A stretch of 13,175 nucleotides of DNA from Pseudomonadota bacterium (GTDB lineage: Bacteria > Bdellovibrionota_B > Oligoflexia > Silvanigrellales > Silvanigrellaceae), in contig JBEAPS010000259.1 of assembly GCA_041164285.1 (NCBI GenBank), positions 1-13,175 on the forward strand, read 5' to 3'. Positions within the stretch are counted from its first letter, which is position 1, and every line of letters begins with the position of its first letter. Shown here piece after piece: positions 1-12,297 of the stretch. The notes beneath the pieces were generated by a model. The model was given only the letters and a program-made list of their open reading frames with translations, had not been told where the DNA came from and made no database searches. Position numbers and translations under genes: made by a program.

Positions 1-250
1 GCAGAATAAAGTCTGCAGACACTTGATCTCTGATTTGATTGAGTTGTTGAAGAAAGCGTATGCCATCTGACCAGGGAGATGCCGTCTGAAAGTACTTTTT
101 GACGTATCGGCTTACTGAAGCAGCCGGAGCGAGGTCACTTCCAACTGCAAAAACATGATAGCCTGAACGACCCAGCGTTCGAATACAGCTCAGGGCGGAA
201 GAGCACTCAGCGTCAGTCACAATTACTACGCTTCTTTCGGGCAATCTCAT
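1..250 (-). CDS. ATP-grasp-like ligase, N-terminal fragment; gene continues beyond the left edge of the window. Not in the supplied ORF track.
   Basis: Minus-strand frame is open from ATG at 250..248 to position 1. Translation: MRLPERSVVIVTDAECSSALSCIRTLGRSGYHVFAVGSDLAPAASVSRYVKKYFQTASPWSDGIRFLQQLNQIRDQVSADFIL. The pattern of short hydrophobic strand, R.LG..G..V..V..D...AP.......D......P......FL..L..I, is typical of the pre-ATP-grasp N-domain. The ATG overlaps the TGA of the upstream deacetylase gene (ATGA at 247..250). The ORF track omitted it because there is no in-window stop. Confidence 0.5.
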   Translation of the reverse strand, partial: MRLPERSVVIVTDAECSSALSCIRTLGRSGYHVFAVGSDLAPAASVSRYVKKYFQTASPWSDGIRFLQQLNQIRDQVSADFIL

Positions 251-1185
251 GCTAACCACCTTTGCCACTTCCATCTGATAGAAGACAAAGGTCTGCTCAA
301 GTCAGTATGCTGACCAATGCAAAACCTTCGAAGCGAGAAGGCGTCTCGGAATGTAAAGTTCCATCCCGGGATAGTGCTCAGCGCGCAGTAAGCTCCTTTT
401 TCAGCAAGAATTTTTTTGCACCGTTCAGAGAAATCGCGCTTCCCACCATTTGGATAAGCGTACAAAAGTGGCCTGTTACTCTGAAGAGAAGCAACAAATT
501 GTAAACTCTTACCTATTTCCAACTTCAATTCACTCTCATCTAACTGCGAATGAATTGAGTGAGTTGCAGAGTGTGCGCCGAAATCAAACACACCGTTGAT
601 CCCAGCATCAGCGCATTGTGAAGGCGAAAGCACCCGAAACTGGTTTGAAACAATCGACTCATCTACCTCCAACCGCCTTAAAAGGTCATCAGTCAACAAT
701 TCAATAGCAGTGGGATGAAGGGAACGAAGAGCGTTCTGAATGAGCTCACTCGCTAGAGCACGTTCAGTAAGATCCGTTATTGGAAAGTGTCTACCCAAAA
801 AATCAAAGTGAGTGCGTTGTGAATTGCTCAGCGCTCCGATCACCTTGGTGTACCAAAGCATTTCACCAGTACTTGATATTTCAGAGGGCATGAAGATTGT
901 TGCCCGAATCCTATGTTCTGATAAGATGTCGCTGCCTAGTTCCACGACTGATGAAAGCCCGTCATCAAAGGTTATCGCCACAGAAGGTCTTTCTAGAGTT
1001 CCATTCGAGAGGGCAGAGAGTCCATCCTGCAACCCAATGAGTGACCAACCCATTTTGCAAACCATCGAAAGGTCAAAATGAAGTTTTGCAGGAGTGACAA
1101 AACAAAAGTCATTAAGAACACTTCGAGTTTCATTGACCAAACCATGGTACGCAAATATGACCAAAGGATTTTTCGTTAACTTCAT
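247..1185 (-). CDS. Polysaccharide deacetylase, CE4/NodB-homology family, with no signal peptide (predicted cytoplasmic)
   Basis: 312-aa ORF with NodB motifs in canonical order: ITFDDG (Asp-Asp metal/catalytic motif), HSATHSIH (H-[ST]-x-x-H), and RPLLYAYPNGG (R-P-x-Y-type motif 3). SD-like AGGAGA 6 nt upstream of ATG at 1185. The N-terminus MKLTKNPLVIFAYHG is not signal-like. Confidence 0.85.
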   Translation of the reverse strand: MKLTKNPLVIFAYHGLVNETRSVLNDFCFVTPAKLHFDLSMVCKMGWSLIGLQDGLSALSNGTLERPSVAITFDDGLSSVVELGSDILSEHRIRATIFMPSEISSTGEMLWYTKVIGALSNSQRTHFDFLGRHFPITDLTERALASELIQNALRSLHPTAIELLTDDLLRRLEVDESIVSNQFRVLSPSQCADAGINGVFDFGAHSATHSIHSQLDESELKLEIGKSLQFVASLQSNRPLLYAYPNGGKRDFSERCKKILAEKGAYCALSTIPGWNFTFRDAFSLRRFCIGQHTDLSRPLSSIRWKWQRWLA

Positions 1186-1200: not shown

Positions 1201-3360
1201 TTAACTTATGCATGTCAAAGTAAAGACAATTCCTGCGACAATGAGCGCTTGAAACCTAGTGTTAAAAGAGTTTGCAAAGAACTTGATCAAATCAATATTG
1301 AGTCTTCTGAGTTCAGTAATAAGCATTCCAAAACGAAGAACGAGCATTCCTAGAACGCTTGCAACCACAGCGCCCTCTGCCGAGAAGTTCTTAAAGCCAA
1401 AAATCACACACGAACAAAGCAAGACGCAACTCACGAATCCGAACGCAAGTATCCTCGATGATTTTCCTTGTGCACGTGCGAAAATATCTGCAGGAATGCA
1501 GGCGCCAATATTCAGTGCTAAGTAGGTTGTTAGGAAAAATACTGAACGATGATATTTCTCACCAAAAAGTAGCTGAATAATTTCTTCTGAGCAGAACATT
1601 AATGCGGCAGTCACAGGGATAACTATATTCGAGACACGACGAACGGCGCGCGCGACCATATCTCTGGAATGATCAAGCTGACCATTCCGCAGTGCAGTTG
1701 CCAAAGGTGCAAGTATGCGCTGGAATACTGACTGCTCCAGATACCCAACCAAGGGCAACGGAAGCAAGCCGGCAACAACAATAGCAAACTGCTCTCCTGA
1801 CAACATGCGGCTAAGATAAAATCGATCGAACATTACGGAGAAAGTAAACATCGCTGCAGCAAAACAAATTGGGAGCGCCTCCCGAAAAATAGCTAGCATG
1901 TTGTTCAAATTGAGTGGCTCAAACCTAATGAGTTTAAGGCGAGCGTTTACCAGAATCATAATAAGAAATCTTAAGAAAATGAAAATGCATATCAATGAAA
2001 AGACGGATCCAAAATTTTGAAGCGCGATTGTCACAGCAACAATCGATATTAATTTGGATACTTCAATCATTGAGACAAGAAATGAGCCTAAAAATGCACG
2101 ATTAGAGATTGCAAGGTTTTGTTCCAAAAACATAGACGGGATAAGAACTATGATTGATAGTGAAAGGATCATATTGTCTTTTAATGATTCTCTGTCGGAC
2201 CCCATCGGTGAGATAAAATAGATAAAAACAGCAAAAAGCATTGCGAAGTAGTTATTTAAATTAAATGCAACTGTCGGTTTGCTTGCCGCGTTCACACCAT
2301 TTGATTTCCAAAACGGGAGCAAGCTCCAGAAGCCAGAGGTCAAGCTAAGACTTCCTGCAGAGGAAAGATAAAAACCAAACGTTCGGTAGTCAGAGAATTG
2401 CTCTTTGGTCCCAAGCCTTGCGAGAATAACGGGGGTAAGCAGGCCTAAGAATGCTACACATGTTTGCATAACTGCCTGAAGCGCCGGCATATGCTCTAGC
2501 TCGTTCGTTTTTCGAAGTATCTTTGCAAATAAATAGTCTGCAACGTGTCGAACGAGGCTGTTGAACCAATGCAAGAGGAGAAGTGGTCGCACTCTCACAA
2601 GCTCAAATCCAGACCGAGCCAACACTTCGACAGCTCCCCGCTTCAAGAGGAGCGCATGTTGATGAGACGCGAGAGAGTCGCTCTGACCTAGACGCCACAT
2701 ATAGGTCTCTCTGAGCGACAAAGTCGCGGGGGAGCTCCTCACAAGACGCAAAAGAAAATCCATGTCCTCGCATCGCCAGAGGCACTCATTGAAGCCACCA
2801 TGTTTGAGGAATGCATCTTTACGAATGAACAGTCCAGAAGGTTGAAGCCAGTTGCCCATCAATGCTTGTTTTTTTGCGTCCCCATGCCAAACTACTTGCG
2901 GTGCTTGAAGAGGAAATAGGTTCCTGAACCTTGACGAACTTCTCTTAAAGACTGGAAAAGCACCGATAAAGCCCTGTGGATCCGCGTAGGGGTTCAATAG
3001 AGCATCTGTAAGGATTGAGTTAGCAAGAATCCATTCAACATTTGAATTTTTCTCTTTGACTTCCTGCAGAGTCGCGAGATGATCTGGCAGCCAGACATCG
3101 TCTGAATCGATAAAAGCAATCCACTCTGACGAACATTTATCCACACCGAGATTACGTGCCCTGGAGGGACCACCTCTGCGACAGTTGAGGAGTATGATGT
3201 CACTCTGACTCCTGCACCACAACACTGTGCCATCGGTCGAGCCGTCGTCGACAACAACAATTTCTCTCGGCGTGAAACTCTGACGCCTTACTGAGTGAAT
3301 GCATTGCTTGAGAAGTCCCAATCTGTTGTATGTCGGAATGACCACAGAAACTTCATTCAT
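1201..3360 (-). CDS. Fusion protein: N-terminal family-2 glycosyltransferase (about aa 1-270, nt ~3360-2550) plus C-terminal 12-14-TM MOP/Wzx-like polysaccharide flippase domain (about aa 280-719, nt ~2520-1201)
   Basis: N-terminus VSVVIPTYNRLGLLKQCIHSVRRQSF...IVVVDDGSTDGT...IAFIDSDDVW is a classic GT2 (GT-A) signature with DxD. The C-terminal about 440 aa contains roughly 13 hydrophobic helices (for example FAMLFAVFIYFISPM, VFSLICIFIFLRFLIMILV, FAIVVAGLLPLPLVGYL, ILAFGFVSCVLLCSCVIFGF), resembling Wzx/PST-family polysaccharide biosynthesis proteins. RBS GAGGGA lies upstream of ATG at 3360. There is a 7-nt gap to the upstream gene. Confidence 0.8.
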   Translation of the reverse strand: MNEVSVVIPTYNRLGLLKQCIHSVRRQSFTPREIVVVDDGSTDGTVLWCRSQSDIILLNCRRGGPSRARNLGVDKCSSEWIAFIDSDDVWLPDHLATLQEVKEKNSNVEWILANSILTDALLNPYADPQGFIGAFPVFKRSSSRFRNLFPLQAPQVVWHGDAKKQALMGNWLQPSGLFIRKDAFLKHGGFNECLWRCEDMDFLLRLVRSSPATLSLRETYMWRLGQSDSLASHQHALLLKRGAVEVLARSGFELVRVRPLLLLHWFNSLVRHVADYLFAKILRKTNELEHMPALQAVMQTCVAFLGLLTPVILARLGTKEQFSDYRTFGFYLSSAGSLSLTSGFWSLLPFWKSNGVNAASKPTVAFNLNNYFAMLFAVFIYFISPMGSDRESLKDNMILSLSIIVLIPSMFLEQNLAISNRAFLGSFLVSMIEVSKLISIVAVTIALQNFGSVFSLICIFIFLRFLIMILVNARLKLIRFEPLNLNNMLAIFREALPICFAAAMFTFSVMFDRFYLSRMLSGEQFAIVVAGLLPLPLVGYLEQSVFQRILAPLATALRNGQLDHSRDMVARAVRRVSNIVIPVTAALMFCSEEIIQLLFGEKYHRSVFFLTTYLALNIGACIPADIFARAQGKSSRILAFGFVSCVLLCSCVIFGFKNFSAEGAVVASVLGMLVLRFGMLITELRRLNIDLIKFFANSFNTRFQALIVAGIVFTLTCIS

Positions 3361-3367
3361 GAGTCCC

Positions 3368-6181
3368 TCAGTCGCTGGTTGGGTTCCTCAGCTTTCCTTC
3401 CATCACACATTTAATCAGATCCGCTCTTGCAGACTGGTATTTACGGGGTTCTCGAGCCCAATTGACTCCATCAGTGACAAGTAAGTTCTCCGACTTTGTC
3501 TTTGCAAGACAAACAGGATTTAACTGACGAGCCCAATTTATGTACTCAGCATCAAATGAACCTTGCTTCCAGAACTTCATTCTGAGCGATGGAACTGGAG
3601 TATGGTCTTGCAACCCATAATTCCCAGGACGCCCGGGATAAAACAATGTTCCATCACCATTTCCCGTGAAATCGTAAAGATCTTTCCAAGGATCCTGTGT
3701 TTTGGCTTTTCTCCAGACGTTATTCACACTGTAATAAAGCACGGTTGATAGTTGATATTCATCAGCCATCCAAGGCCACACTCGAATGTAGGCCGCGTTT
3801 CTCTCAATCACGAAATCTGGCTCACCACTCGAGTCGAGCGACCCACAGCCATGGCTCATACAACTGACGTAGCTCCAAAGCTCGCGTTCTTCTGAAAAAC
3901 TAGGTTTGCCTTCTCTCACGAGTGTCTGCAAAAGAGGTGCAAATATATCGATATTTTCCTGCAAGCTTTTCCATGGGTACACTGTCACGAGGGAACTCAC
4001 GCTGGGAGCTGAAGCTTTGACGTCTGACGCTGCCTTATACAACATCATAAAGTCCTCTTGAACCGGCTCGTCCCACAGATAAACAAATGGTCGACTCCTC
4101 ATTCTTTCAATCAATCCATTCTCGATTGTGTCATCACTCGTTGCATCAAGGTAATCCTGCCATCTCTTCCAGTAGGAACGCCTTTCGTCTGAAGACGGAC
4201 TGTCAATGCGCGGAAGATCGACCCGCGCCCACGGGGGTAAAAAATCAATTACTGTTCTTAAAATTGACATTTCGAGACTCGGGTATCTACTGAGCAAAAC
4301 ATGTGCATCGCTGCGCTCTGCCAGTGTTTGAAATGGGTGCTTAATCCAAGCCTTGAGGGGAAGAATTCTATTTTCGATCATCTCTTTAATGTATTGTTTG
4401 GTCAGTGAAGCCTCCTCTCTGCCTGACTGACCATAATGCGCGAGCGATGCAAAGAATGGAGTAAACTCAGCCCTCATAGGCAGGGTCCACTTGTCGGGCA
4501 TTTCGAGTGGCAGAATATCGACCTTCAATTTCCAGGCCGGATTTATAACCTTAGCCGAGTCAATTGAATTGCCTGGATCATACATTAGATTCTGAAGAAA
4601 TCCTGAAACAGAACCTGGTTGTGCGGATCTACCTGCGGTTATCTCAGTGAAAAGCCACTCAAAAGAAGACGGATCTTCGTCGTGGCAGGGTGTCACAGCT
4701 GAGATTGGCACAAGAGCATCAATGTATTTTCCCGGTAACACACCTTCGTATGAAGGTTTCGTCACAGGAATACCAACGCCACCATACCACCTCAAACTAA
4801 GTCCGGCAGCTTTGAGGTTGGCACTTAGAATTGGCAAACTTCCACACCACGAATTAGTCTTTAGAGTGAGTAATGTGCTCTCGCCACGCGCAAGCTCCAA
4901 GCTGACTTCACTTTGCCAGTCTGTCGAACGGATATACTCAGGACGTTCCACCAGGCTTGTGAGTTGTACCCGCCCAACATCAGCGAAGCTCTTTAATGGA
5001 ACTGCTTTATTTAGTATAAAAACAGCAAGAATCATAAGAATTGATTTGTATTTAATGGTATAGTTTTTGACCATTTCCCGAAATGAATACTGAGCTCGAA
5101 ATTGCTCTCTCTGATTCCATTCATTTTTTCTGTCATTTTTTTTCGAGGCCTGCTCCAAAAACTTTTGAAGCATAAACGGGTCTGATGCTGAGCTGTTTGC
5201 TGGCAGGAAGCTCGCCCATGATTTAAGCTCACTGTGCCCAGGGATATCAGACAACAGAGCTGGCAGACCGAAGCCAATTGCTTCATATACTGCCAGTGGC
5301 ATTCCTTCTTCCTCGGACAGTGAGACAAACGCATCACACGCTTGATAAAAAAGATTGGGCACATCTGTGGCACCAAGGAACACAGGTGAAGCAACACCCC
5401 GCTGTGTCAGTGAGTTCAGTTCGCTCAAATAGTGCTCGTCGTTGATTGGCCCCACAAGAAGTACGCGCCACGCCTCTTGGGTTCTCTCCGGCAACTGTTG
5501 CCAGGCTCTCATGAGACGGTCAATTCCTTTTCCAGGAACTATTCTCCCCATGAATATCAGCAAATGCTGTTGCTTTTCTGCCTCTCTGATCCTGAACTCA
5601 TATGCCGAAGGGTATCGCCTGCTCAGAGCTTCACGAGCTGAAGCTGAGGATACGAATTGCGACGGAAACGCAACACCATTTGACACTACCGCCAATTTCT
5701 TTTCCGGAATGCCAAGTTGCCGATAGACCTCCTGCACTCTCCGAGAAACACTGCATATTATATTTGCAAATCGCGGAAAAAAGTTCTCATAAAGAAAGTA
5801 TCGAAATTTGCCTTTGCGCAGGTGAACAAAACTATGTTGTGTATGAATAATTTTCACTTTGCCCAAAAGCAGAAACGATATTATGACGGCATATATGAGT
5901 GCTCCCAGGTCGTGCGAGTGAATAATTTCAATCTTTTTTTGGCGGACTATCTCAAAGAGATAAAATAATGTTCGGAAGGAAAATCCGTTCAACTTTTGCC
6001 AAGAATAGACACTCACTCCATGCGCATGAAGCTCATTACAGAATGTCGAACTCAGTCCGTTCTTTTCATAAACTGCGACTGATGATTGATTTCCACGTAA
6101 TGCGAGCCCCGCTGCAAGGTTAGTCACACAACGTTCGAGCCCCCCTAACGCGAGATATTGAGTGATTTGCAAAACCCTCAT
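3368..6181 (-). CDS. Fusion protein: N-terminal GT4 (GT-B) glycosyltransferase (aa 1-~370), single TM helix (aa ~378-394, nt ~5047-4999), C-terminal about 540-aa extracytoplasmic glycoside-hydrolase-like domain (nt ~4980-3368)
   Basis: 937-aa ORF. N-terminal MRVLQITQYLALGGLERCV plus EX7E motif (EEEGMPLAVYEAIGFGLPALLSDIPG) are diagnostic of retaining GT4 enzymes. A TM segment KSILMILAVFILNKAV follows. The C-domain is rich in W/Y/D/E, with LWDEP (adjacent Asp-Glu) and NGDGTLFYPGRPG motifs. These are reminiscent of DUF4091/GH123-like or other TIM-barrel glycosidase folds, recalled from memory and not verified. The start ATG overlaps the upstream stop (ATGA at 6178..6181). Confidence 0.8.
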   Translation of the reverse strand: MRVLQITQYLALGGLERCVTNLAAGLALRGNQSSVAVYEKNGLSSTFCNELHAHGVSVYSWQKLNGFSFRTLFYLFEIVRQKKIEIIHSHDLGALIYAVIISFLLLGKVKIIHTQHSFVHLRKGKFRYFLYENFFPRFANIICSVSRRVQEVYRQLGIPEKKLAVVSNGVAFPSQFVSSASAREALSRRYPSAYEFRIREAEKQQHLLIFMGRIVPGKGIDRLMRAWQQLPERTQEAWRVLLVGPINDEHYLSELNSLTQRGVASPVFLGATDVPNLFYQACDAFVSLSEEEGMPLAVYEAIGFGLPALLSDIPGHSELKSWASFLPANSSASDPFMLQKFLEQASKKNDRKNEWNQREQFRAQYSFREMVKNYTIKYKSILMILAVFILNKAVPLKSFADVGRVQLTSLVERPEYIRSTDWQSEVSLELARGESTLLTLKTNSWCGSLPILSANLKAAGLSLRWYGGVGIPVTKPSYEGVLPGKYIDALVPISAVTPCHDEDPSSFEWLFTEITAGRSAQPGSVSGFLQNLMYDPGNSIDSAKVINPAWKLKVDILPLEMPDKWTLPMRAEFTPFFASLAHYGQSGREEASLTKQYIKEMIENRILPLKAWIKHPFQTLAERSDAHVLLSRYPSLEMSILRTVIDFLPPWARVDLPRIDSPSSDERRSYWKRWQDYLDATSDDTIENGLIERMRSRPFVYLWDEPVQEDFMMLYKAASDVKASAPSVSSLVTVYPWKSLQENIDIFAPLLQTLVREGKPSFSEERELWSYVSCMSHGCGSLDSSGEPDFVIERNAAYIRVWPWMADEYQLSTVLYYSVNNVWRKAKTQDPWKDLYDFTGNGDGTLFYPGRPGNYGLQDHTPVPSLRMKFWKQGSFDAEYINWARQLNPVCLAKTKSENLLVTDGVNWAREPRKYQSARADLIKCVMEGKLRNPTSD

Positions 6182-6918
6182 GACACACTCACCGGATCTG
6201 TGAGCGACTTAATCACACGTGCAGGGTTCCCAGCGAGTATGCATCGGTCTGGATAAATCCCGGCAGTTACCACTGCACCACTGGCTACAATACTGCCATG
6301 GCCGATCTGTGCCCCTTTCAGAACGATTGCTCCAGAGCCAATCCAAACATCGTCACCTATGACAATGGGCGCAGACGGTGGCATCCACCTCTGCAAGACA
6401 TCTTCGTTCTCTTGGGGAGCCGTGTTTGAAAGTCTGGGGTAAAATCTGCGACAAATTCTTTTTACCTGCTCAGCCCGTATTTCTGGCAAGGTTGGATGTG
6501 AATCATAGTCCTGTAGAAATACATTCCAGCTCAGCAATGCACGGTGCCCAATGGATATTTTCTCACGGGCAGAAATCCTACAGTCCCCAAGAACGGCACA
6601 TTCCCCAATACGAACAACTCCCTTACCTACAACCTCTAGCCGCGCATTTTCGAAAACAATGGAGTGATTCCCGATTTCAATTCGTGCTTCATCGCTGTAA
6701 ATTTGAATCGTCCGAGCATTCTGTATACGAACATTCTCTCCCAATCTCAGGTTGCGCCTGTATGACATTGCCCTTCGGATATAGTGTGATGAAAAATAGA
6801 ATGAAATATAATTCCGAAACATAGAAAATACTTGCATTCGATGAGACTTCATCGCTTTGAAAACGAGTTGAATGAAATGCCAGCGGCCTTGTTGTGAGGT
6901 TTCCCTTACTACTTCCAT
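6178..6918 (-). CDS. Hexapeptide-repeat (left-handed beta-helix) acyl/acetyltransferase, probable sugar O-acetyltransferase
   Basis: Imperfect [LIV]-G-x-x-x-x hexapeptide repeats throughout (IGNHSIVFENARLEVVGKGVVRIGECAVLGDCRIS; IGDDVWIGSGAIVLKGAQIGHGSIVASGAVVTAGIYPDRCILAGNPARVIK), as in LacA/WcaF/CysE-type transferases. The longest ORF starts at GTG 6942 and overlaps the upstream gene by 34 nt. An in-frame ATG at 6918 is preceded by AAGGAGAGGAGG and sits 4 nt after the upstream stop, so it is the preferred start. Confidence 0.8.
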   Translation of the reverse strand: MEVVRETSQQGRWHFIQLVFKAMKSHRMQVFSMFRNYISFYFSSHYIRRAMSYRRNLRLGENVRIQNARTIQIYSDEARIEIGNHSIVFENARLEVVGKGVVRIGECAVLGDCRISAREKISIGHRALLSWNVFLQDYDSHPTLPEIRAEQVKRICRRFYPRLSNTAPQENEDVLQRWMPPSAPIVIGDDVWIGSGAIVLKGAQIGHGSIVASGAVVTAGIYPDRCILAGNPARVIKSLTDPVSVS

Positions 6919-8030
6919 AGCACCTCCTCTCCTTGATCCCACGGACCAACGAGTAGGGAGCGAATCGCTTTCAGCGACGAATTAAAACTGGGTATTTTTT
7001 GCGCATATCTCAGAGCAATAACAAACAGTACAATCACAATAAGTATTCGAATCCACATTTCACCCGAACCATACTCAATAGCAAACAGTGAAAGCGATAG
7101 GCCAAGAAAGATTGGTACAAGTACCCAAAGCAATCGAAAAAAACGACGCAGTGAAAGAACAAAGACGGACTTGTTCCAGAACCACAGAAATGGCAACAAA
7201 CTTGCCATCCATTGAAGGTTGCCTTTACTCACACGCAATCGAGCGGCTTGCTCATTTAAATCCGATCTTCCCGCATGGTCACAGACGCAGAAACCCATCT
7301 TCTTATTGCGGCTGTATATAATGCGCTGGTTCGGATTGAGGGCCCTCATCACGAGTGGCAAAACGACGTCGTCGTTGATCCACTTCCGTCCCGCCAGAAA
7401 CCTCAAGGCAGTTTTCAAATAGTCGGTTCTATACAGGATAGTTGCTCCATGCACAGAGATTGGACCGCCTGCAACATTCTCAATGGATTTTATGAAAGCT
7501 TCCAGGGACCAAAACCATTTGCTCAGAAAACCAGATTTCCAAGTCGAGTAAGTTGGAGAGAAACCAACAACATCCGCAGATGCCAGATAGGAAATTGCGT
7601 TCCTCAATAACCTTTTATCCCAAACAACTCCACAATCGACCAAAGCAATCCACTGCCCCCGAGATTCCGAGGCCAGTGCATGGATGACCTTCCACTTAGA
7701 CCTAAATTTAAAATTTACGACATGTGCACCATATAATTTTGCATCGTCAGCGCTGCCATCGGTGCAGTCGTCGAGTCCACAAATCACCTGAACTGAAATT
7801 TCTGGAAATAGAAATTGCAAATGATCGACTGCCTCGAAAACACTTTGCAGGGTAAGTCTGAGACGCCCCTCCTCGTTGTGACAGGGAATTAAGACATCAA
7901 TTGAATGTGGTAAGTCTGAGGGTTGTGAATTCATTTTTTTAGCAGGACTCAACAGCGCGACAATAACAGGAAACGCAAAAAGAGAGACGAGAAGCAGAAT
8001 CGCTGCTAAAACCGCTGGCATCAACCACAT
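6909..8030 (-). CDS. Integral-membrane family-2 glycosyltransferase with synthase-like topology (N-terminal TM, GT-A domain, 2-3 C-terminal TMs)
   Basis: 373 aa. N-terminal helix MWLMPAVLAAILLLVSLFAFPVIVALL. GT2 core IDVLIPCHNEEGRL...GLDDCTDGS...ALVDCGVVWDK. C-terminal hydrophobic helices LLPFLWFWNKSVFVLSL, LLWVLVPIFLGLSLSLFAI and IRILIVIVLFVIAL. A GGGGGA SD lies 5 nt before ATG at 8030. No clean QxxRW motif was seen. Confidence 0.8.
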   Translation of the reverse strand: MWLMPAVLAAILLLVSLFAFPVIVALLSPAKKMNSQPSDLPHSIDVLIPCHNEEGRLRLTLQSVFEAVDHLQFLFPEISVQVICGLDDCTDGSADDAKLYGAHVVNFKFRSKWKVIHALASESRGQWIALVDCGVVWDKRLLRNAISYLASADVVGFSPTYSTWKSGFLSKWFWSLEAFIKSIENVAGGPISVHGATILYRTDYLKTALRFLAGRKWINDDVVLPLVMRALNPNQRIIYSRNKKMGFCVCDHAGRSDLNEQAARLRVSKGNLQWMASLLPFLWFWNKSVFVLSLRRFFRLLWVLVPIFLGLSLSLFAIEYGSGEMWIRILIVIVLFVIALRYAQKIPSFNSSLKAIRSLLVGPWDQGEEVLWK

Positions 8031-8088: not shown

Positions 8089-9327
8089 TTAGTTTTGTTT
8101 CCGCAGAATCAACGGATATGACGCTGAATTAAAAGCCGAAATCCCCCAACCTGTAAGTAGACAGCGAGAATCGGAACCTCGTTCGGCGCTCAATCGCCAA
8201 GCAAGGGGAATATTTGCTTGCATATTAACAAACGTAAGTCGACCCGTACTCGCATTGTATTTTCCAAAAGCAAAAGGAAGACGAAACTCTCCTGAGGGTG
8301 TTGAAAACACTCCTGCGTATTGCTCAGTGCCGATTTTTTCGAGACTAAAAGTTCCTGAATGACCCGCAAGTGTCACGTAGTATTGACCCAAGAGTTCTGA
8401 TTCTGCACATGGCTCGTTGGAAAATGATCGAATACTGACAATGCGTCTCGCTTCAAATCGAGTTTTTTTGAGCGCGATGGGCTCCAAAACGGTTCCAGAG
8501 ACCATTTCAAAATTTTCGTCGAAATTCAACTCAATTACGGATGGAACCTGCGAGGCAAATGACTGACGACTTATAAGGCTTTGAGGCTGTCCCTGGAATG
8601 AGACATTCTTGAAGACCATAGGCGGAATAGTAGGGTGAGTGAGAGCCGCGACAATCCCTAAATCCCCGCCACTTGAAAATAGAATTAACTTTAGTTTGTC
8701 AATCTCTTCTTGCAATGGACCATCAATTACTGTGAGCTGAAAAGCTCCCTCCCAGCCATTAAAAACTTCCAAGAGCTGCGTAGAGAGGGAACTCGCTAAA
8801 CTCAAAGCATGACGTGAAATATAGTCTGCATCGTCTAATCTTCGACTCGTTGCTTCTGCGTTCCCCGCAAAACAGACGAGATTCCGGATGATGTCTTCAC
8901 TCTTAAATTCACCTACCCTACGCAGAAAGAAATCGAGGGCTGCGTAACGTCGCGCATCGCTCGCTAACTCAGAATATGCGGCAGAGAGCCTTTGACAGTC
9001 GCGCCAGACCCACTGCACGAGAGCAAAGAGAATTTGATCTTTCAGTGCCTTGGCTTCGCGCAGAACGTAGTCTTCATCATTCAATCGTGCAATGAGTTCA
9101 ACGACTCCACCAGCGAAGAGTAACAAATTGTTCAGTTTGGCTTCTTCTTTCTCTTTGCCAAAGTCATTACGAAGTTTAGAAATGAATTGAAACCGATAAG
9201 CCTGCCCTTTTTCTTCAAGAACTTTGAGCTCAGAGCGCACGTCACAGATCGGTAACCCGCACCCCAATCCTACTTGAGTAAAATTAATACACACGAAAAG
9301 AGCAGACAACGTAAAAAATGGTCTCAT
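8089..9327 (-). CDS. Hypothetical secreted or periplasmic protein of unknown function (first gene of the glycan operon). The longest ORF extends to a TTG at 9459.
   Basis: The ORF track gives 8089..9459 with a TTG start. The first in-frame ATGs are at 9417 and 9327. The ATG at 9327 begins MRPFFTLSALFVCINFTQVGLGCGLPIC, a convincing signal peptide (positive n-region, hydrophobic core, Cys-containing region that could be a lipoprotein site). The mature protein has a helical N-half and a beta-rich C-half, with no motif I can assign to a known family. The start is uncertain within 9327/9417/9459. Confidence 0.55.
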   Translation of the reverse strand: MRPFFTLSALFVCINFTQVGLGCGLPICDVRSELKVLEEKGQAYRFQFISKLRNDFGKEKEEAKLNNLLLFAGGVVELIARLNDEDYVLREAKALKDQILFALVQWVWRDCQRLSAAYSELASDARRYAALDFFLRRVGEFKSEDIIRNLVCFAGNAEATSRRLDDADYISRHALSLASSLSTQLLEVFNGWEGAFQLTVIDGPLQEEIDKLKLILFSSGGDLGIVAALTHPTIPPMVFKNVSFQGQPQSLISRQSFASQVPSVIELNFDENFEMVSGTVLEPIALKKTRFEARRIVSIRSFSNEPCAESELLGQYYVTLAGHSGTFSLEKIGTEQYAGVFSTPSGEFRLPFAFGKYNASTGRLTFVNMQANIPLAWRLSAERGSDSRCLLTGWGISAFNSASYPLILRKQN

Positions 9328-9584
9328 CCACTTCAAGTCATTGTAATCGGACTCTCGTTTGCGTTTTTTAAAACTGAAAATCGTAACCACAGTCGCCCCT
9401 CCAAACTTAATCGACATTCTGGAGAGTCGTTCAAATCCAGCCTCGCTGTCTCGTCTCAATTATTGGATCTGAAAAATATTCACTTTGCCTGCTCGCAACT
9501 GACATAATTTTAAGTTTCGGAAATTTTCGCAGTCCTGTTTATTGAAAATCTTATCCACTCTCTTTGAACAAAATGAATTTCTCC

Positions 9585-10721
9585 TCACCTGCCTGAAGGT
9601 GAGCCACAGACCTGCGGAGCCGTAAAGCCGAGTTTAAGGAGATCAAAATAATTTTGTCCCAACGCTATCTGCCGGTAGGCCGTGTCATCTACACGAGAAA
9701 GCACCGCACTCGTAAGCTTTACTTCTTCACTGTAGACTTGTTCCGATTTGTCCTCAGATGCAACAAAATCGGTGCCCGTTATGAAGCGCTTAGGCCACTT
9801 GTTCATTAGCTCTACATACGGCCCCACGTAGCTTTCATTGGAGAACACTTGGTCATACAACACCCGCCAGGCAATATCGAATGTAAGATTGGAATATCTG
9901 TTCATCAGGTTTTCAAGGATGGCTACGTGTTTGGATTTATCAAACTCTTTGAGCTCTTTTGAAAGTCCCAAATGAAGCCAGATAATCTTATTATCGGGGT
10001 AGAGTTTAAGAACCTCTTCCATTTGGGGAAGGTACTTGAAAGGCTCATTGTCGTTCCCAATATCTGAGTGAAAAGCAACAGGGATATCGAGACGCTTAAG
10101 TTCGTTCATGAACGGTGCCCATTCCGCAATTTTTTGAAGACTGACAGCTGAGTGCTGATTTTTAAAGAGCGCCTGTTTAACGAGGTTCACCTCGCCCATC
10201 CATCGGAACATTCCCGGATATTCATTGTTGAGAAGGCCCATTTGTTCGAGAACACCGCCCGGCTGCGCCAAGTCAGGGAACGTCATCGACAGTGTGAGTT
10301 TCAGGTCGGCGGGAGCATTGTCGAGTAGACTTTGTGCATTGTAAAAGTCGTTCTTCAAACTAGGAAGAACCGGAGTGCCAGGGCAATCGAGATAGTAGGT
10401 ACACCTCGAGTCAACCGGAAGTCGCTGACCAATGCCATAGAGAGTTGCAAAAATCACCCCACTCCTGCGCATATAGTCGAGAAGTTTCGTGAACGGCACG
10501 GGTTTTCCACCAAATGGACGTGAATGGAGATGACTGTCGACCACAGCCACTGGTCCGTGCTTTTTCCTATCGAAGCACGCTGCATTTGCTTTAGAAAAAT
10601 CAGAAATTGTCAGCTCGTGAGGCTTTAGCTTCTGATAGAGAGAAGTTTTCTCGGAATTCAGCTTGCAGGACATCTGGAGAAAAAAAAGCACGAACATTGA
10701 ACTTTTAAGAATGTAACTCAC
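9585..10721 (-). CDS. Amidohydrolase_2-family (TIM-barrel metal-dependent hydrolase) protein with N-terminal signal peptide
   Basis: 378 aa. VAVVDSHLH is the canonical D-x-H-x-H metal-binding start of Amidohydrolase_2. Later conserved His and Asp residues occur in VAFHSDIG, WLHLGLS and FITGTDFVAS. The N-terminus MSYILKSSMFVLFFLQMSCKLNS has a hydrophobic signal-like segment ending in Cys. Start is GTG at 10721, and an alternative ATG at 10697 lacks an SD. Confidence 0.75.
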   Translation of the reverse strand: MSYILKSSMFVLFFLQMSCKLNSEKTSLYQKLKPHELTISDFSKANAACFDRKKHGPVAVVDSHLHSRPFGGKPVPFTKLLDYMRRSGVIFATLYGIGQRLPVDSRCTYYLDCPGTPVLPSLKNDFYNAQSLLDNAPADLKLTLSMTFPDLAQPGGVLEQMGLLNNEYPGMFRWMGEVNLVKQALFKNQHSAVSLQKIAEWAPFMNELKRLDIPVAFHSDIGNDNEPFKYLPQMEEVLKLYPDNKIIWLHLGLSKELKEFDKSKHVAILENLMNRYSNLTFDIAWRVLYDQVFSNESYVGPYVELMNKWPKRFITGTDFVASEDKSEQVYSEEVKLTSAVLSRVDDTAYRQIALGQNYFDLLKLGFTAPQVCGSPSGR

Positions 10722-10899
10722 TGTTTTCCATCGCCCTATGAATAAAAAGGTATTCTCAAAGTGATCCAGACCGTTCCGTGGATCAAATATATTTCGTTAA
10801 TGTGACCAAGCTCAATTGGAGCAGATTTTTGATAACTCACGCAAATATTTTAATCTGCGCATATCTGGACTTCATCTGTCAATTTCGCATTCATTGCGC

Positions 10900-10931
10900 T
10901 TGAAAAAAATTTCAAACGAAGATTTTATTCT
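10900..10931 (+). promoter_or_regulatory. Candidate sigma70-type promoter for the flotillin gene, overlapping a palindrome TTGAAA-AAAA-TTTCAA
   Basis: TTGAAA (10900-10905) is a near-consensus -35. A T/A-rich -10 candidate (TTTATT at 10924-10929, or TATTCT at 10926-10931) sits 18-20 nt downstream. It lies about 30 nt upstream of the ATG at 10960. The -35 is part of a perfect 6-bp inverted repeat with a 4-bp spacer (10900-10915) that could be an operator. Confidence 0.25.
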
Positions 10932-10959
10932 ATGTTCGACACTTCCATAGGAGCAATAC

Positions 10960-12270
10960 ATGCTGAATTTCGGAACATTTGAAATCTTCGTCGTGACAGT
11001 GATTGGTATAATAGTCCTTACTTCAATATTACTTCGGAGAGTTGTACCGACAAACGAAGTTCATATCGTTCAGTCAGCTAAACAAACAACTTCCTACGGT
11101 AAAGACACTCAAAATGGAAACTCCTATTATGAGTGGCCCTCGTGGATTCCTGTATTGGGAGTCACGACAGTTTCTCTTCCCATGTCTGTCTTCGACCTAG
11201 ATCTTGAATCATACGAGGCTTACGATAAGGGTCGTTTGCCGTTCGTAGTGGATGTTAAGGCATTTTTCCGAATTTCGGAGTCGAACGTCGCTGCGCAACG
11301 TGTCGCATCTTTTGAAGAACTCAAGGATCAGCTCAAAGCAATTGTTCAGGGCGCAGTCCGCGTTATTTTGGCCTCAAGCGACATAGAAGACATTCTTCAA
11401 GGGCGCTCAACATTTGGTGAGCAGTTCACACGTGAGGTGACAGAACAGCTCATGCACTGGGGTGTCTCTGCGGTGAAAAACATAGAGCTGATGGATATTC
11501 GCGACTCACAGGAAAGCAGAGTCATTCACAATATTATGGATAAGAAAAAGTCTCACATCGAGATGGAGTCGCGAACGGAAGTTGCAAAAAACAGAAAAAT
11601 TGCTGAGATAGCTGAAATCGAAGCAAAGCGAGAAGTTGATCTTCAAAATCAAGTTGCAACGCAGGCTGTTGGCCTTCGAACAGTAGAGGCACAGAGGGAA
11701 GTTGCACTCCAAACAGAAACGGCAGAGCAGGCGATTAAAGAGCAGCAAAAGCTCACAAAACAGAAGGAAATGGAAGTTCGAAAAGTCGAACTGGTCAAAG
11801 TTGCAGAAATAGAAAAAGAGACCCAAATCATCAAGGCAGAGCAGATTAAAGAGACTCTGATTCTTGAAGCTGATGGTGCACTAGAAGCTAAGCGAAAAGA
11901 GGCAGCAGGTATTCAAGCAGAGGGTATTGCAAAGGCTGAAGCGGAGAAAGCTCTTCAACTAGCACCTGTTCAAGCGCAGATTGAACTCGCTAAAGAGATT
12001 GGCGAAAACAAGAGTTACCAGGAATATCTTGTCACAATAAGACGGGTCGAAGCTGAAGAGACTGTGGGTGTGAAGCAAGCTGAAGCATTGATGCAGGCAA
12101 ACATCAAAGTTATCGCTAACTCTGGCGACATCAATCATGGCTTTAAGTCCATTTCTGACGTCTTGAGCTCAAAAGGTGGAACTGCAATTGGTGCGCTGCT
12201 TGAGGGTATCAACAACACTGAGGTGGGTGGCACACTTCTCAGTAACCTGACTAAACAGCCACAGGCCTAA
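10960..12270 (+). CDS. Flotillin-family SPFH/band-7 membrane protein (FloT/YqiK-like)
   Basis: 436 aa. N-terminal TM FEIFVVTVIGIIVLTSILL is followed by an SPFH-type core (VVPTNEVHIVQS...LPFVVDVKAFFRI). A long Glu/Ala/Gln/Lys-rich coiled coil with EA repeats follows (AEIAEIEAKREV...AEGIAKAEAEKALQLA), and then a Gly-rich C-terminal tail. SD GGAGCA lies 7 nt before ATG at 10960. Confidence 0.85.
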   Translation: MLNFGTFEIFVVTVIGIIVLTSILLRRVVPTNEVHIVQSAKQTTSYGKDTQNGNSYYEWPSWIPVLGVTTVSLPMSVFDLDLESYEAYDKGRLPFVVDVKAFFRISESNVAAQRVASFEELKDQLKAIVQGAVRVILASSDIEDILQGRSTFGEQFTREVTEQLMHWGVSAVKNIELMDIRDSQESRVIHNIMDKKKSHIEMESRTEVAKNRKIAEIAEIEAKREVDLQNQVATQAVGLRTVEAQREVALQTETAEQAIKEQQKLTKQKEMEVRKVELVKVAEIEKETQIIKAEQIKETLILEADGALEAKRKEAAGIQAEGIAKAEAEKALQLAPVQAQIELAKEIGENKSYQEYLVTIRRVEAEETVGVKQAEALMQANIKVIANSGDINHGFKSISDVLSSKGGTAIGALLEGINNTEVGGTLLSNLTKQPQA

Positions 12271-12273
12271 TTC

Positions 12274-12297
12274 CTCACTGGGAAAGCGAGGAGCGTT
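12274..12297. terminator. Weak imperfect hairpin in the 26-nt convergent junction between the flotillin and SDR genes
   Basis: TCCTCaCTGGGAAAGcGAGGA: 5-bp stem TCCTC/GAGGA plus 2 further pairs across an A/C mismatch. It has no flanking T-tract and overlaps the SDR stop codon. Only weakly terminator-like. Confidence 0.15.

What the first reader, a model, noticed from the sequence alone, without database searches (positions are those of the whole stretch)
1201..3360. GT2 glycosyltransferase fused in-frame to a Wzx/MOP-like multi-spanning flippase domain
A typical 270-aa GT-A family-2 transferase (VVIPTYN...DDGSTDGT...DSDD) continues without a stop into about 440 aa containing roughly 13 TM helices of the polysaccharide-biosynthesis (Wzx/PST) type. 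In Wzx/Wzy and related pathways, the last sugar addition and lipid-linked oligosaccharide flipping are performed by separate proteins. A fusion implies obligatory coupling of a specific glycosyl transfer to translocation and may define the flippase's substrate. The membrane domain is C-terminal, the reverse of most accessory-domain arrangements.
Basis: partly seen in the sequence, partly recalled or inferred. Interest (0 to 1): 0.65.

Follow-up and report, generated by a model that had tools for sequence, protein, structure and literature searches.

The report
Glycosyltransferase fused to Wzx-type flippase
One 719-residue protein joins a sugar-adding enzyme to the membrane transporter that flips lipid-linked sugar units outward, and relatives fuse the same transporter to two other enzymes of the pathway, which suggests the flippase works in physical contact with the enzymes that finish its cargo.

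Summary
An uninterrupted 719-aa ORF lies at 1201-3360, on the minus strand. It carries an N-terminal GT-A family-2 glycosyltransferase (aa 1-225), two amphipathic linker helices (aa 226-290) and a 13-helix MOP-superfamily flippase domain (aa 291-719).

The fusion is not an artefact. Sixteen full-length homologues (37-66% identity, four data sources) align without gaps through the junction. They sit in the same operon, inside a complete Wzx/Wzy-type polysaccharide cluster with no other MOP gene.

The nearest relatives of this MOP domain carry different fusions. Many are MOP::GT4, and one is deacetylase::MOP. The fused GT4 and deacetylase are homologues of the two genes that flank the fusion in the window. 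Three layouts therefore link one flippase clade to the same enzyme set, which points to a flippase-centred complex on the cytoplasmic face.

Coupling to the last sugar addition is plausible but not shown. I found no paper describing such fusions. I rate it a new variant of a known kind, of moderate to good interest.

The parts
1201..3360 (-). Complete GT2::MOP fusion gene: 719 codons plus a TAA stop at 1201-1203.
   Evidence: ORF list and translation. Sixteen full-length homologues align without gaps across the junction.
2686..3360 (-). GT-A fold family-2 glycosyltransferase domain, aa 1-225. The nucleotide-binding D38-D39, the DXD motif D85-S-D-D88 (nt 3097-3108) and the E198-D199 'CEDMD' motif are all invariant in the family.
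   Evidence: Pfam PF00535 E 1e-29 and PF10111 aa 5-210. Foldseek matches WrtF, TarP, TarS, RmlT, K4CP and a PglI-type enzyme. PDB sequence hits are GalT1, K4CP, PglI-type and WrtF. Invariant columns are listed. No QxxRW motif is present.
2491..2685 (-). Linker, aa 226-290. It consists of two long helices (aa 233-257 and 259-288) that are amphipathic rather than membrane-spanning. They probably lie on the cytoplasmic membrane surface.
   Evidence: DSSP assignment and pLDDT of 77-94 in the AlphaFold model. Mean hydropathy is about 0.3 and the hydrophobic moment about 0.9. There are no indels here in 17 aligned sequences, with W265, D275 and R283 invariant; mean conservation is 0.53, against 0.50 for the MOP domain.
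1204..2490 (-). MOP-superfamily (Wzx/PST-type) flippase domain, aa 291-719, with 13 transmembrane helices. Most homologues carry a 14th helix that this protein and P0002 lack.
3364..3369 (-). Shine-Dalgarno-like GAGGGA. It lies 3 nt upstream of the ATG (its last base 4 nt from the A) and overlaps the TGA stop (3368-3370) of the upstream GT4 gene, which suggests translational coupling.
   Evidence: Read directly from the sequence.
3368..6181 (-). Upstream neighbour in the same operon: GT4 glycosyltransferase (aa 3-383), one TM helix (aa 381-399) and a domain of about 540 aa that weakly resembles GH123. Its GT4 domain is the orthologue of the GT4 that is fused to the flippase in MOP::GT4 relatives.
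   Evidence: Pfam and TM prediction. It is 36% identical over 388 aa to the P0132 GT4 domain, E 2e-64. MOP-fused GT4 domains score 200-226 bits against this gene and its orthologues, but at most 52 bits against the other GT4 paralogues of the cluster.
247..1185 (-). Downstream neighbour (15-nt gap, own AGGAGA ribosome-binding site): a polysaccharide deacetylase with no signal peptide or TM helix. It is a homologue of the deacetylase domain that is fused to the N-terminus of the flippase in P0308.
   Evidence: Pfam PF01522 and a weak NCBIfam HfsH hit. No hydrophobic segment. It is 26% identical over 302 aa to P0308 aa 16-313, E 2e-18. P0308 architecture is given.
6178..8030 (-). Further operon members, conserved in all related loci: a hexapeptide-repeat acetyltransferase (6178-6942) and a membrane GT2 (6909-8030).
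   Evidence: Pfam and NCBIfam. Synteny holds in L001, L003, L011 and L012. The membrane GT2 is 34% identical to the L008 gene.

Best explanation
The gene encodes a bifunctional enzyme-transporter of a Wzx/Wzy-dependent exopolysaccharide or capsule pathway. The source is an uncultured freshwater bacterium that NCBI names only 'Pseudomonadota bacterium'; the sister fusion family is annotated mostly as Bdellovibrionota.

Shown:
- The N-terminal domain is a canonical GT-A GT2 with all catalytic motifs invariant.
- The C-terminal domain has the MOP flippase fold and passes the Pfam PST-type model.
- The fusion and its operon are conserved down to 37% identity.
- The operon sits next to genes for a Bac_transf priming phosphoglycosyl transferase, further GT4/GT1 enzymes, a Wzy_C polymerase, a Wza-like exporter and a Wzb-like phosphatase.
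- No other MOP gene lies within 10 kb in the related loci.

Inferred:
- The GT2 domain sits on the cytoplasmic face, held at the membrane by two amphipathic helices, because MOP proteins have a cytoplasmic N-terminus.
- It uses a nucleotide sugar to add one residue to the undecaprenyl-diphosphate-linked repeat unit.
- The tethered MOP domain then flips the finished unit to the periplasm for Wzy polymerisation.

The same flippase clade is elsewhere fused to the orthologous GT4 or to a homologous deacetylase. The fusion is therefore best read as one of several ways of hard-wiring a complex between the flippase and the cytoplasmic enzymes that complete and tailor its substrate. In that arrangement intermediates are handed directly to the flippase.
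For: - Domain identities.
- Catalytic motifs D38-D39, D85-S-D-D88 and E198-D199 are invariant in 17 sequences.
- The MOP domain keeps the residues that are at least 85% conserved across 85 MOP domains of all fusion types: R315, W351, D512, E542, D625 and R629.
- High-confidence models: pLDDT 89.3 and pTM 0.69 for the whole protein, 88.8 and 0.84 for the MOP domain alone.
- Synteny is conserved in L001, L002, L003, L011 and L012. The order is unknown protein, membrane GT2, hexapeptide acetyltransferase, GT4::X, GT2::MOP, deacetylase, ATP-grasp::LMWPc. On the opposite strand lie GT1, Wzy_C, an unknown protein, a Wza-like protein, GT4 and Bac_transf. The left end of the window continues this synteny.
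- Of the best 150 representatives found with a MOP-only profile, 9 are GT2::MOP, 69 are MOP::GT4 and 72 have MOP alone.
- GT4 orthology is specific: 200-244 bits against at most 52 bits to paralogues.
- A deacetylase::MOP fusion exists.
- N-terminal fusions (GT2, deacetylase) and C-terminal fusions (GT4, on the longer MOP forms) are all compatible with cytoplasmic placement.
- The closest solved GT2 relatives act on oligosaccharide or lipid-linked acceptors, for example a PglI-type enzyme and WrtF.
Against: - No activity has been measured. Donor, acceptor and position of the GT2 step in the assembly order are unknown, so 'last sugar' is not shown.
- The window protein has 13 rather than 14 helices, which places its C-terminus outside. 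The family varies in the last helices.
- The best structural match is MurJ rather than WzxE, so fold alone cannot place the domain in the Wzx subfamily.
- The standalone GT2 genes next to the other fusion types score only 65-98 bits against the fused GT2 domain. That is less than many unrelated GT2 proteins score (up to 172 bits), so GT2 orthology across layouts is not established.
Confidence: 0.7

Rival explanations
1. Lipid-monosaccharide route. The GT2 domain makes a polyprenyl-phosphate sugar, as GtrB, ArnC and DPMS do. The adjacent deacetylase modifies it, as ArnD does. The MOP domain then flips this small lipid-sugar so that the polymer can be decorated in the periplasm.
For: A GT2 is immediately followed by a cytoplasmic NodB-type deacetylase, which recalls ArnC/ArnD (the Arn analogy is from general knowledge). 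There are very weak NCBIfam hits to polyprenyl-phosphate GTs (PpgS E 0.0035, AglJ 2e-5) and one PDB hit to an archaeal GT2 (6yv7, E 6e-7; I recall 6yv7 as a polyprenyl-phosphate mannose-type enzyme, which no tool confirmed).
Against: The best sequence and fold matches are GT2 enzymes that act on oligosaccharide acceptors; GtrB, DPMS and ArnC are not among the listed matches: the 50 Foldseek rows shown of 242 at E<=0.001 and all 25 PDB sequence hits. Known flippases for Und-P-sugars are small GtrA or SMR-like proteins, not MOP proteins (general knowledge). No GT-C-like partner was seen within 10 kb. The cluster otherwise needs a Wzx and has no other candidate.
Confidence: 0.12
2. Anchor-only. 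The MOP domain has lost transport function and merely tethers the GT2 to the membrane or scaffolds the complex. Flipping is done by an unlinked flippase.
For: Wzx redundancy is documented in other systems: deleting prmI has no phenotype in Sphingomonas, and holdfast flippases are described there as promiscuous (PMC11340318). The last helices of the MOP domain vary within the family.
Against: The polar and charged residues conserved across the clade are retained. The 12-helix core is modelled with high confidence and superimposes on active MOP transporters. It is the only MOP gene in five syntenic loci. A 430-aa, 13-helix anchor would be costly when two amphipathic helices are already present.
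Confidence: 0.08
3. The membrane domain is a MurJ-type lipid II flippase, and the protein belongs to peptidoglycan synthesis rather than exopolysaccharide synthesis.
Against: The TIGR01695 score is 22 bits against a cut-off of 235.55. The window protein passes Polysacc_synt_3 but does not reach E<=0.01 against Pfam MurJ. The genomic context is a Wzx/Wzy polysaccharide cluster in every locus. Fourteen-helix 'groove' domains also occur in non-MurJ flippases such as TacF (PMC13385700).
Confidence: 0.03
4. Artefact. A frameshift, sequencing error or chimeric assembly has joined two separate genes.
For: None was found. The window is a single assembled sequence and read mapping was not available.
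Against: Sixteen full-length homologues at 37-66% identity, from four independent data sources, all carry the same uninterrupted architecture and align without gaps through the junction; a 99%-identical fragment (P0001) also spans it. The linker folds into two confident helices.
Confidence: 0.01

Closest known systems
Wzx flippases of Wzx/Wzy-dependent pathways (PST family of the MOP superfamily; examples are WzxE with structures 9g95/9g9p, HfsF of the Caulobacter holdfast, PssL of Rhizobium)
   Different: Described Wzx proteins are stand-alone membrane proteins of about 400-500 aa. Here a complete GT2 enzyme is covalently attached to the N-terminus. The domain has 13-14 helices, compared with 12 in WzxE (the WzxE count is from general knowledge). 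Sequence identity to solved Wzx proteins is only about 8-14%.
MOP::GT4 and deacetylase::MOP fusion proteins found here (uncharacterised; mostly from MAGs labelled Bdellovibrionota or Bdellovibrionales)
   Same: They belong to the same MOP clade and are the nearest relatives outside the family (about 110-210 bits to the MOP profile). They lie in a related gene set with a membrane GT2, a hexapeptide acetyltransferase, a deacetylase, Wzy_C and Wza. The fused GT4 is the orthologue of the gene upstream of the fusion in the window, and the fused deacetylase is a homologue of the gene downstream.
   Different: The partner enzyme differs (a GT-B fold GT4, or a NodB-type deacetylase, instead of a GT-A GT2). 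For GT4 the domain order also differs, with MOP first. No experimental work on any of them was found.
MurJ (lipid II flippase) and TacF (teichoic-acid 'gatekeeper' flippase)
   Same: MurJ is the best structural match, with 401-418 of 434 residues aligned. Most homologues have the additional C-terminal helices 13-14. TacF illustrates a MOP flippase that checks whether its cargo is complete (PMC13385700).
   Different: The MurJ equivalog model is not met (22 against 235.55 bits). The context is not peptidoglycan or teichoic-acid synthesis. Neither MurJ nor TacF carries a fused glycosyltransferase. A mycobacterial MurJ with a fused cytoplasmic pseudokinase domain is the nearest precedent I recall for an extra domain on a MOP flippase; that is from memory and was not checked.
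Synthase-type GT2 enzymes with their own channel (BcsA, hyaluronan synthase, PgaC/IcaA, Alg8)
   Same: They also place a GT2 catalytic domain and a membrane translocation device in one polypeptide, and so couple sugar transfer to export.
   Different: In those enzymes the GT2 is processive, carries a QxxRW motif, and is inserted between helices that form a polymer channel. Here no QxxRW is present in any family member. The membrane domain is a MOP alternating-access transporter for lipid-linked units, and the cluster has a separate Wzy polymerase.

Membership tests
Glycosyltransferase family 2 (GT-A fold, inverting; Pfam PF00535) | Match to the family HMM above the curated cut-off. | tested here: met
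   PF00535 scores 104.1 bits against 23.3, and PF10111 scores 54.1 against 27.3.
Glycosyltransferase family 2 (GT-A fold, inverting; Pfam PF00535) | GT-A Rossmann-like fold. | tested here: met
   The AlphaFold model has pLDDT around 90-96 over aa 1-220. Foldseek hits to solved GT2 enzymes have probability 1.00 and target TM-scores of 0.55-0.86.
Glycosyltransferase family 2 (GT-A fold, inverting; Pfam PF00535) | Nucleotide-binding Asp, DXD metal/diphosphate motif and an acidic catalytic-base region. | tested here: met
   D38-D39, D85-S-D87-D88 and E198-D199 are present and invariant in 17 sequences. Their catalytic roles are inferred by analogy.
Glycosyltransferase family 2 (GT-A fold, inverting; Pfam PF00535) | Glycosyl transfer activity; identity of donor and acceptor. 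| not testable with these tools
   This needs biochemistry.
MOP superfamily, PST/Wzx-type oligosaccharidyl-lipid flippase | Match to a PST-family HMM above the curated cut-off. | tested here: met
   PF13440 Polysacc_synt_3 scores 42.3 bits in the whole protein and 44.2 bits in the isolated domain, against a cut-off of 23. Every family hit across 11 homologues belongs to the MOP group: PF13440, PF03023, PF01943 and PF01554.
MOP superfamily, PST/Wzx-type oligosaccharidyl-lipid flippase | MOP fold: two six-helix bundles, at least 12 TM helices. | tested here: met
MOP superfamily, PST/Wzx-type oligosaccharidyl-lipid flippase | Encoded within a Wzx/Wzy-type cluster (priming PGT, Wzy polymerase, PCP/OPX export). 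| tested here: met
   In the syntenic loci L001, L003, L011 and L012, Bac_transf, Wzy_C, Poly_export/SLBB and LMWPc genes lie within 10 kb and no other MOP gene is present. The window itself ends before that half of the cluster, but it shares the flanking ATP-grasp::LMWPc gene.
MOP superfamily, PST/Wzx-type oligosaccharidyl-lipid flippase | Cytoplasmic N-terminus. | not tested
   This is inferred from published topologies of Wzx and MurJ, and from the need of the fused GT2, GT4 and deacetylase domains for cytoplasmic substrates. No topology predictor or experiment was available.
MOP superfamily, PST/Wzx-type oligosaccharidyl-lipid flippase | Translocation of Und-PP-linked repeat units. | not testable with these tools
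   This needs genetics or a reconstituted flipping assay.
MurJ / MVF family lipid II flippase | Match to the MurJ equivalog model above its cut-off. | tested here: not met
   TIGR01695 scores 22 bits against a cut-off of 235.55. Pfam MurJ is not reported for the window protein at E<=0.01.
MurJ / MVF family lipid II flippase | Fourteen TM helices with a TM13-14 groove domain. | tested here: inconclusive
   The window protein has 13 helices, while most homologues have 14. MurJ aligns over 401-418 of 434 residues.
Processive synthase-type GT2 (BcsA/HAS/PgaC) | QxxRW motif, and a GT2 domain embedded between channel-forming helices. | tested here: not met
   No Q..RW occurs in any of the 17 family members. 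The GT2 domain is wholly N-terminal to the membrane domain.
Polyprenyl-phosphate glycosyltransferase systems (GtrB/ArnC/DPMS with a small flippase and a GT-C partner) | GT2 closest to GtrB/DPMS/ArnC; a GtrA- or SMR-type flippase; a GT-C transferase nearby. | tested here: not met
   GtrB, DPMS and ArnC are not among the listed matches: the 50 Foldseek rows shown of 242 at E<=0.001 and all 25 PDB sequence hits. NCBIfam hits to such enzymes are far below cut-off. No GT-C-like gene was found in the neighbourhoods.

The most novel reading that the evidence does not exclude
In this lineage the Wzx flippase may be the organising hub of a cytoplasmic-face assembly complex. The GT4, the GT2 and the deacetylase would dock on it, each being covalently fused to it in one lineage or another. 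Lipid-linked intermediates would then pass directly from the last tailoring steps into the flippase cavity. On this reading, completeness of the repeat unit is enforced by physical tethering rather than only by substrate recognition inside the transporter. Natural single-chain GT-flippase proteins would allow direct structural study of that hand-over.
Probability: 0.35. Interest if true: 0.75.

Novelty: new variant of a known kind. Interest (0 to 1): 0.6.

Why it matters
How Wzx-type flippases choose complete repeat units is an open question. [quoted passage not shown] Two-hybrid tests for contacts between a terminal glycosyltransferase and Wzx in Rhizobium were described by the authors as ambiguous (PMC7589315).

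Here one flippase clade is fused to a GT2, to a GT4, or to a deacetylase, and the fused GT4 and deacetylase are homologues of the genes flanking the fusion in the window. That is classical gene-fusion evidence that these proteins act together.

The family also offers practical material:
- single polypeptides suitable for cryo-EM of an enzyme-flippase assembly;
- a direct test of substrate channelling;
- a possible design principle for engineered glycan pathways, where flippase specificity can limit which glycans are exported (general knowledge).

Tried and rejected
- **AFDB search.** An afdb50 search for full-length structural matches (other fusions in UniProt) was not possible because the library was unavailable.
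- **Word-indexed search with the MOP domain alone.** It found only 4 proteins. The exhaustive profile search was needed.
- **PDB sequence search with the MOP profile.** It gave no hit even at E<=1. Only fold comparison links the domain to solved structures.
- **Foldseek with the whole model.** It returned only GT2 hits, so the MOP domain was modelled separately.
- **Unfused GT2 orthologues.** I looked for them next to relatives of the flippase. Standalone GT2 genes do lie near deacetylase::MOP (L010) and in the MOP::GT4 cluster (L008). They score only 98 and 65 bits against the fused GT2 domain, less than many unrelated GT2 proteins (up to 172 bits). I therefore do not claim orthology.
- **Linker conservation.** I first thought the linker was unusually conserved. 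Measurement showed it is about as conserved as the membrane domain (0.53 against 0.50) and less so than the GT-A core (0.66).
- **Long GT2 hits from the first search.** Other 600-1000-aa GT2 hits have no MOP domain and no hydrophobic segments.
- **Literature.** Six keyword searches found no description of a glycosyltransferase-Wzx fusion. Promising hits (Sphingomonas promonan, a GT network paper, an Asgard transporter survey) use 'fused' in other senses. This does not prove that no description exists.
- **Taxonomy.** It could not be taken beyond NCBI's label 'Pseudomonadota bacterium' for this family.
- **Limit of the profile search.** Only the best 150 of 3412 MOP profile hits were visible, so other independent GT-MOP fusions may exist further out.
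Full report
**Observation**

The window contains an ATG-to-TAA open reading frame of 719 codons at exactly 1201..3360. It lies on the minus strand, which the finding did not say. It is one of a run of tightly packed minus-strand genes. The upstream gene ends at 3368, and its TGA overlaps a GAGGGA ribosome-binding motif for the ATG at 3360. The downstream gene starts 15 nt after the stop and has its own AGGAGA motif.

Pfam places Glycos_transf_2 at aa 5-105 (104 bits, cut-off 23.3) and Glyco_tranf_2_2 at aa 5-210. It places Polysacc_synt_3 at aa 313-607 (42 bits, cut-off 23). NCBIfam adds many sub-threshold GT2 hits and a weak MurJ hit over aa 416-712.

**Is the fusion real?**

A search of 5.8 billion proteins returned sixteen full-length homologues (692-771 aa, 37-66% identical, 95-100% coverage). 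It also returned a 99%-identical fragment cut by a contig end. These come from JGI, ENA, NCBI and Logan assemblies. Aligned with the window protein, they run from the GT2 domain through the linker into the first membrane helix without gaps. The invariant residues include the GT2 catalytic motifs (D38-D39, D85-S-D-D88, C197-E-D-M200) and linker residues W265, D275 and R283.

The linker is about as conserved as the membrane domain (0.53 against 0.50 mean majority fraction). The GT-A core is the most conserved part (0.66). An HMM of the membrane domain finds that domain in all of these proteins, the fragment included. It finds it in none of the other long GT2 hits, which have no hydrophobic segments at all. 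A sequencing or assembly artefact can be dismissed.

**What the two domains are**

AlphaFold2 with the 17-sequence alignment gives a confident model (pLDDT 89.3, pTM 0.69). It shows a GT-A alpha/beta domain to about aa 223, two long helices (aa 233-257 and 259-288), and then an all-helical membrane domain.

The two linker helices have mean hydropathy near 0.3 and a high hydrophobic moment. They are amphipathic and not membrane-spanning.

Foldseek of the whole model finds only GT2 enzymes: WrtF, TarP, TarS, RmlT, chondroitin polymerase and a PglI-type enzyme. The PDB sequence search agrees.

The membrane domain modelled alone (pLDDT 88.8, pTM 0.84) matches only MOP-superfamily transporters.
- Foldseek query TM-scores are 0.55-0.75 to MurJ entries (most 0.63-0.75) and 0.70 to the best WzxE entries (target-normalised 0.74).

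Hydropathy and DSSP both give 13 helices. Most homologues are about 40 residues longer and have a 14th helix. No family member has the QxxRW motif of processive synthases.

**Genomic context**

In the window the operon reads, 5' to 3' on the minus strand:
- an unknown 456-aa protein;
- a membrane GT2 (6909-8030);
- a hexapeptide acetyltransferase (6178-6942);
- a 937-aa GT4 with a C-terminal extension (3368-6181);
- the GT2::MOP fusion;
- a polysaccharide deacetylase (247-1185);
- the start of a further gene at the left edge.

That last gene is the orthologue of a 620-aa ATP-grasp::low-molecular-weight phosphatase gene in related loci.

The same order is kept in loci carrying homologues as distant as 37-38% identity (L001/L002, L003, L011, L012). 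Those loci continue on the opposite strand with a GT1, a Wzy_C polymerase-type protein, an unknown protein of about 350 aa, a Wza-like Poly_export/SLBB protein, a GT4, and a Bac_transf priming phosphoglycosyl transferase.

This is a complete Wzx/Wzy-type polysaccharide cluster, and the fusion is its only MOP gene. By function and context the membrane domain is therefore a Wzx-type flippase, even though MurJ is the best structural match. The MurJ equivalog model is missed by a wide margin (22 against 235.55 bits).

**Alternative fusions around the same flippase clade**

An exhaustive profile search with the membrane domain alone, against 1.84 billion representatives, found nine representatives of the GT2::MOP family (435-597 bits). 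After a gap, from 242 bits down, the remaining listed hits split almost evenly. About half are stand-alone MOP proteins of about 470-490 aa. The other half are proteins of 830-930 aa with the MOP domain at the N-terminus.

Pfam shows that the long ones are MOP::GT4 fusions. Of the 150 best representatives, 9 are GT2::MOP, 69 are MOP::GT4 and 72 are MOP alone; a few of the last group are probably fragments.

The fused GT4 is not just any GT4.
- It is 34-36% identical over its full length to the GT4 domain of the gene directly upstream of the fusion in this window and its orthologues (200-226 bits).
- It scores at most 52 bits against the other GT4 paralogues of the same clusters.

A further relative, P0308, is a deacetylase::MOP fusion. 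Its deacetylase domain aligns over 302 residues with the deacetylase directly downstream of the fusion in the window (E 2e-18). It is followed, after a 1-nt gap, by a stand-alone orthologue of the same GT4.

The MOP::GT4 loci also share the membrane GT2 (34% identity). They further carry a hexapeptide acetyltransferase, a Wza-like gene, Wzy_C, a GT2 and a deacetylase.

Three layouts therefore exist:
- GT4::X | GT2::MOP | deacetylase;
- MOP::GT4 with GT2 and deacetylase elsewhere in the cluster;
- GT2 | deacetylase::MOP | GT4.

One caution applies. The stand-alone GT2 genes in the other two layouts are not demonstrably orthologous to the fused GT2 domain (65-98 bits, less than many unrelated GT2 proteins).

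**Mechanism**

Shown:
- Both domains look intact.
- The GT2 catalytic residues are invariant.
- The MOP domain retains the polar residues that are at least 85% conserved across 85 MOP domains of all layouts: R315, W351, D512, E542, D625 and R629.

Inferred:
- MOP flippases have a cytoplasmic N-terminus (established for Wzx and MurJ; general knowledge). GT2 enzymes use cytoplasmic nucleotide sugars. The GT2 domain therefore sits on the cytoplasmic face, held at the membrane by the two amphipathic helices.
- The deacetylase has no signal peptide or membrane helix. In P0308 it is fused to the same cytoplasmic end, so it probably acts before flipping. The holdfast deacetylase HfsH is likewise predicted to act on lipid-linked or polymerised substrates (PMC6372794).
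- The most economical model has the GT2 domain add a sugar to the undecaprenyl-diphosphate-linked repeat unit beside the flippase entrance. The unit is also acted on by the neighbouring GT4 and deacetylase. The MOP domain then flips it for Wzy polymerisation and Wza-type export.

The alternative fusions argue for a physical complex centred on the flippase.

**Rival explanations**

- *A GtrB/ArnC-like route.* The GT2 would make an Und-P-sugar that the deacetylase modifies and the MOP domain flips. The GT2-deacetylase adjacency hints at this. The GT2's closest relatives, the absence of a GT-C partner and the type of flippase argue against it.
- *An anchor-only role for the MOP domain.* The conserved cavity residues and the lack of another flippase gene argue against it.
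- *A MurJ role.* It fails the MurJ model and the context test.
- *An artefact.* It is excluded.

**Comparison with what is known, and novelty**

Stand-alone Wzx flippases and their clusters are textbook material, and so are GT2 enzymes. Synthase-type GT2 enzymes couple transfer to export, but with a different, processive mechanism and a different membrane domain.

Automated annotation already labels some of these proteins with both functions, for example JGI's 'O-antigen/teichoic acid export membrane protein/GT2 family glycosyltransferase'. Six full-text literature searches found no paper that describes or studies a glycosyltransferase-Wzx fusion. Keyword searches cannot prove that none exists.

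The field treats flippase substrate selection as unresolved (PMC11759038; TacF as a 'gatekeeper', PMC13385700). Evidence for GT-Wzx contacts is described as ambiguous (PMC7589315).

I therefore rate the finding a new variant of a known kind. The pathway is ordinary, and the architecture and its alternative forms are new. They bear directly on an open question.

**Origin**

NCBI names the genomes carrying the family only as 'Pseudomonadota/Proteobacteria bacterium' MAGs. Two of these MAG labels (WHONDRS 'sw', NASQAN) suggest river or surface-water surveys; that reading of the labels is my own and was not checked. The sister MOP::GT4 family is annotated mostly as Bdellovibrionota or Bdellovibrionales, with single entries labelled Deltaproteobacteria and Elusimicrobia. 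I could not resolve the taxonomy further.

**Limits**

- There are no activity data.
- Only the top 150 of 3412 MOP profile hits were visible.
- The AFDB library was unavailable.
- No read mapping was possible.

Noticed in passing
window 3368-6181 (-): The upstream gene is itself an unusual fusion. It has a GT4 glycosyltransferase (aa 3-383), a single TM helix (aa 381-399), and then about 540 aa with a sub-threshold GH123 catalytic-domain hit (aa 668-883, 21.3 bits against a cut-off of 23.1). A stand-alone 553-aa GH123-like protein with a signal-peptide-like N-terminus lies next to a stand-alone MOP relative in L009 (5609-7270). The extension is therefore probably a periplasmic glycoside-hydrolase-like domain tethered to a cytoplasmic GT4.
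   Followed up: partly
P0126-P0227 proteins; loci L007 10001-12520 and L008 9894-12569: There is a large family of MOP::GT4 fusion proteins (830-930 aa). It makes up 69 of the best 150 representatives for the MOP profile and is annotated mostly from Bdellovibrionota/Bdellovibrionales MAGs. The proteins lie in clusters related to the one in the window.
   Followed up: partly
L010 2150-4594 (P0308): This is a deacetylase::MOP fusion of 814 aa (PF01522 at aa 79-276, Polysacc_synt_3 at aa 357-652). It is followed after 1 nt by the orthologous GT4 and preceded divergently by a GT2. It represents a third way of linking the same enzyme set to the flippase.
   Followed up: partly
window 6909-8030 (-): A 373-aa GT2 has one N-terminal and about three C-terminal TM helices, a topology like that of small processive synthases. 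It has only weak NCBIfam hits to EpsU and PgaC/IcaA. It is conserved in both the GT2::MOP and MOP::GT4 cluster types (34% identity to L008 7308-8453). Its role beside a Wzx/Wzy system is unclear.
   Followed up: partly
window 8089-9459 (-): A 456-aa ORF (TTG start) has one hydrophobic segment near aa 51-69 and no Pfam or NCBIfam hit. An unannotated gene of 416-431 aa occupies the same position in L001, L003 and L011.
   Followed up: no
window 1-~250 (-), running off the left edge: This is the start of a gene whose first 83 residues are 47% identical to the N-terminus of a 620-aa protein in L001. That protein combines a weak ATP-grasp-like region with a C-terminal low-molecular-weight phosphotyrosine phosphatase (Wzb-like) domain, which is another unusual fusion in the cluster.
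   Followed up: partly
window 1201-1320 (-) compared with homologues: The window protein and its 66%-identical relative P0002 end about 36-50 residues earlier than most homologues and lack the 14th membrane helix. P0008 is shorter still. The helices beyond the 12-helix MOP core appear dispensable in this family.
   Followed up: partly
window 6178-6942 (-): The listed GTG start of the hexapeptide acetyltransferase overlaps the upstream GT2 gene by 34 nt and gives 254 aa. Homologues are 236-270 aa, so the true start is uncertain.
   Followed up: no
window 9585-13001: Beyond the polysaccharide operon lie an Amidohydro_2 protein (9585-10721, -), a 436-aa SPFH/Band-7 protein with a long coiled-coil-like tail (10960-12270, +), and a short-chain dehydrogenase (12297-13001, -). 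None of these appears in the syntenic loci examined.
   Followed up: no
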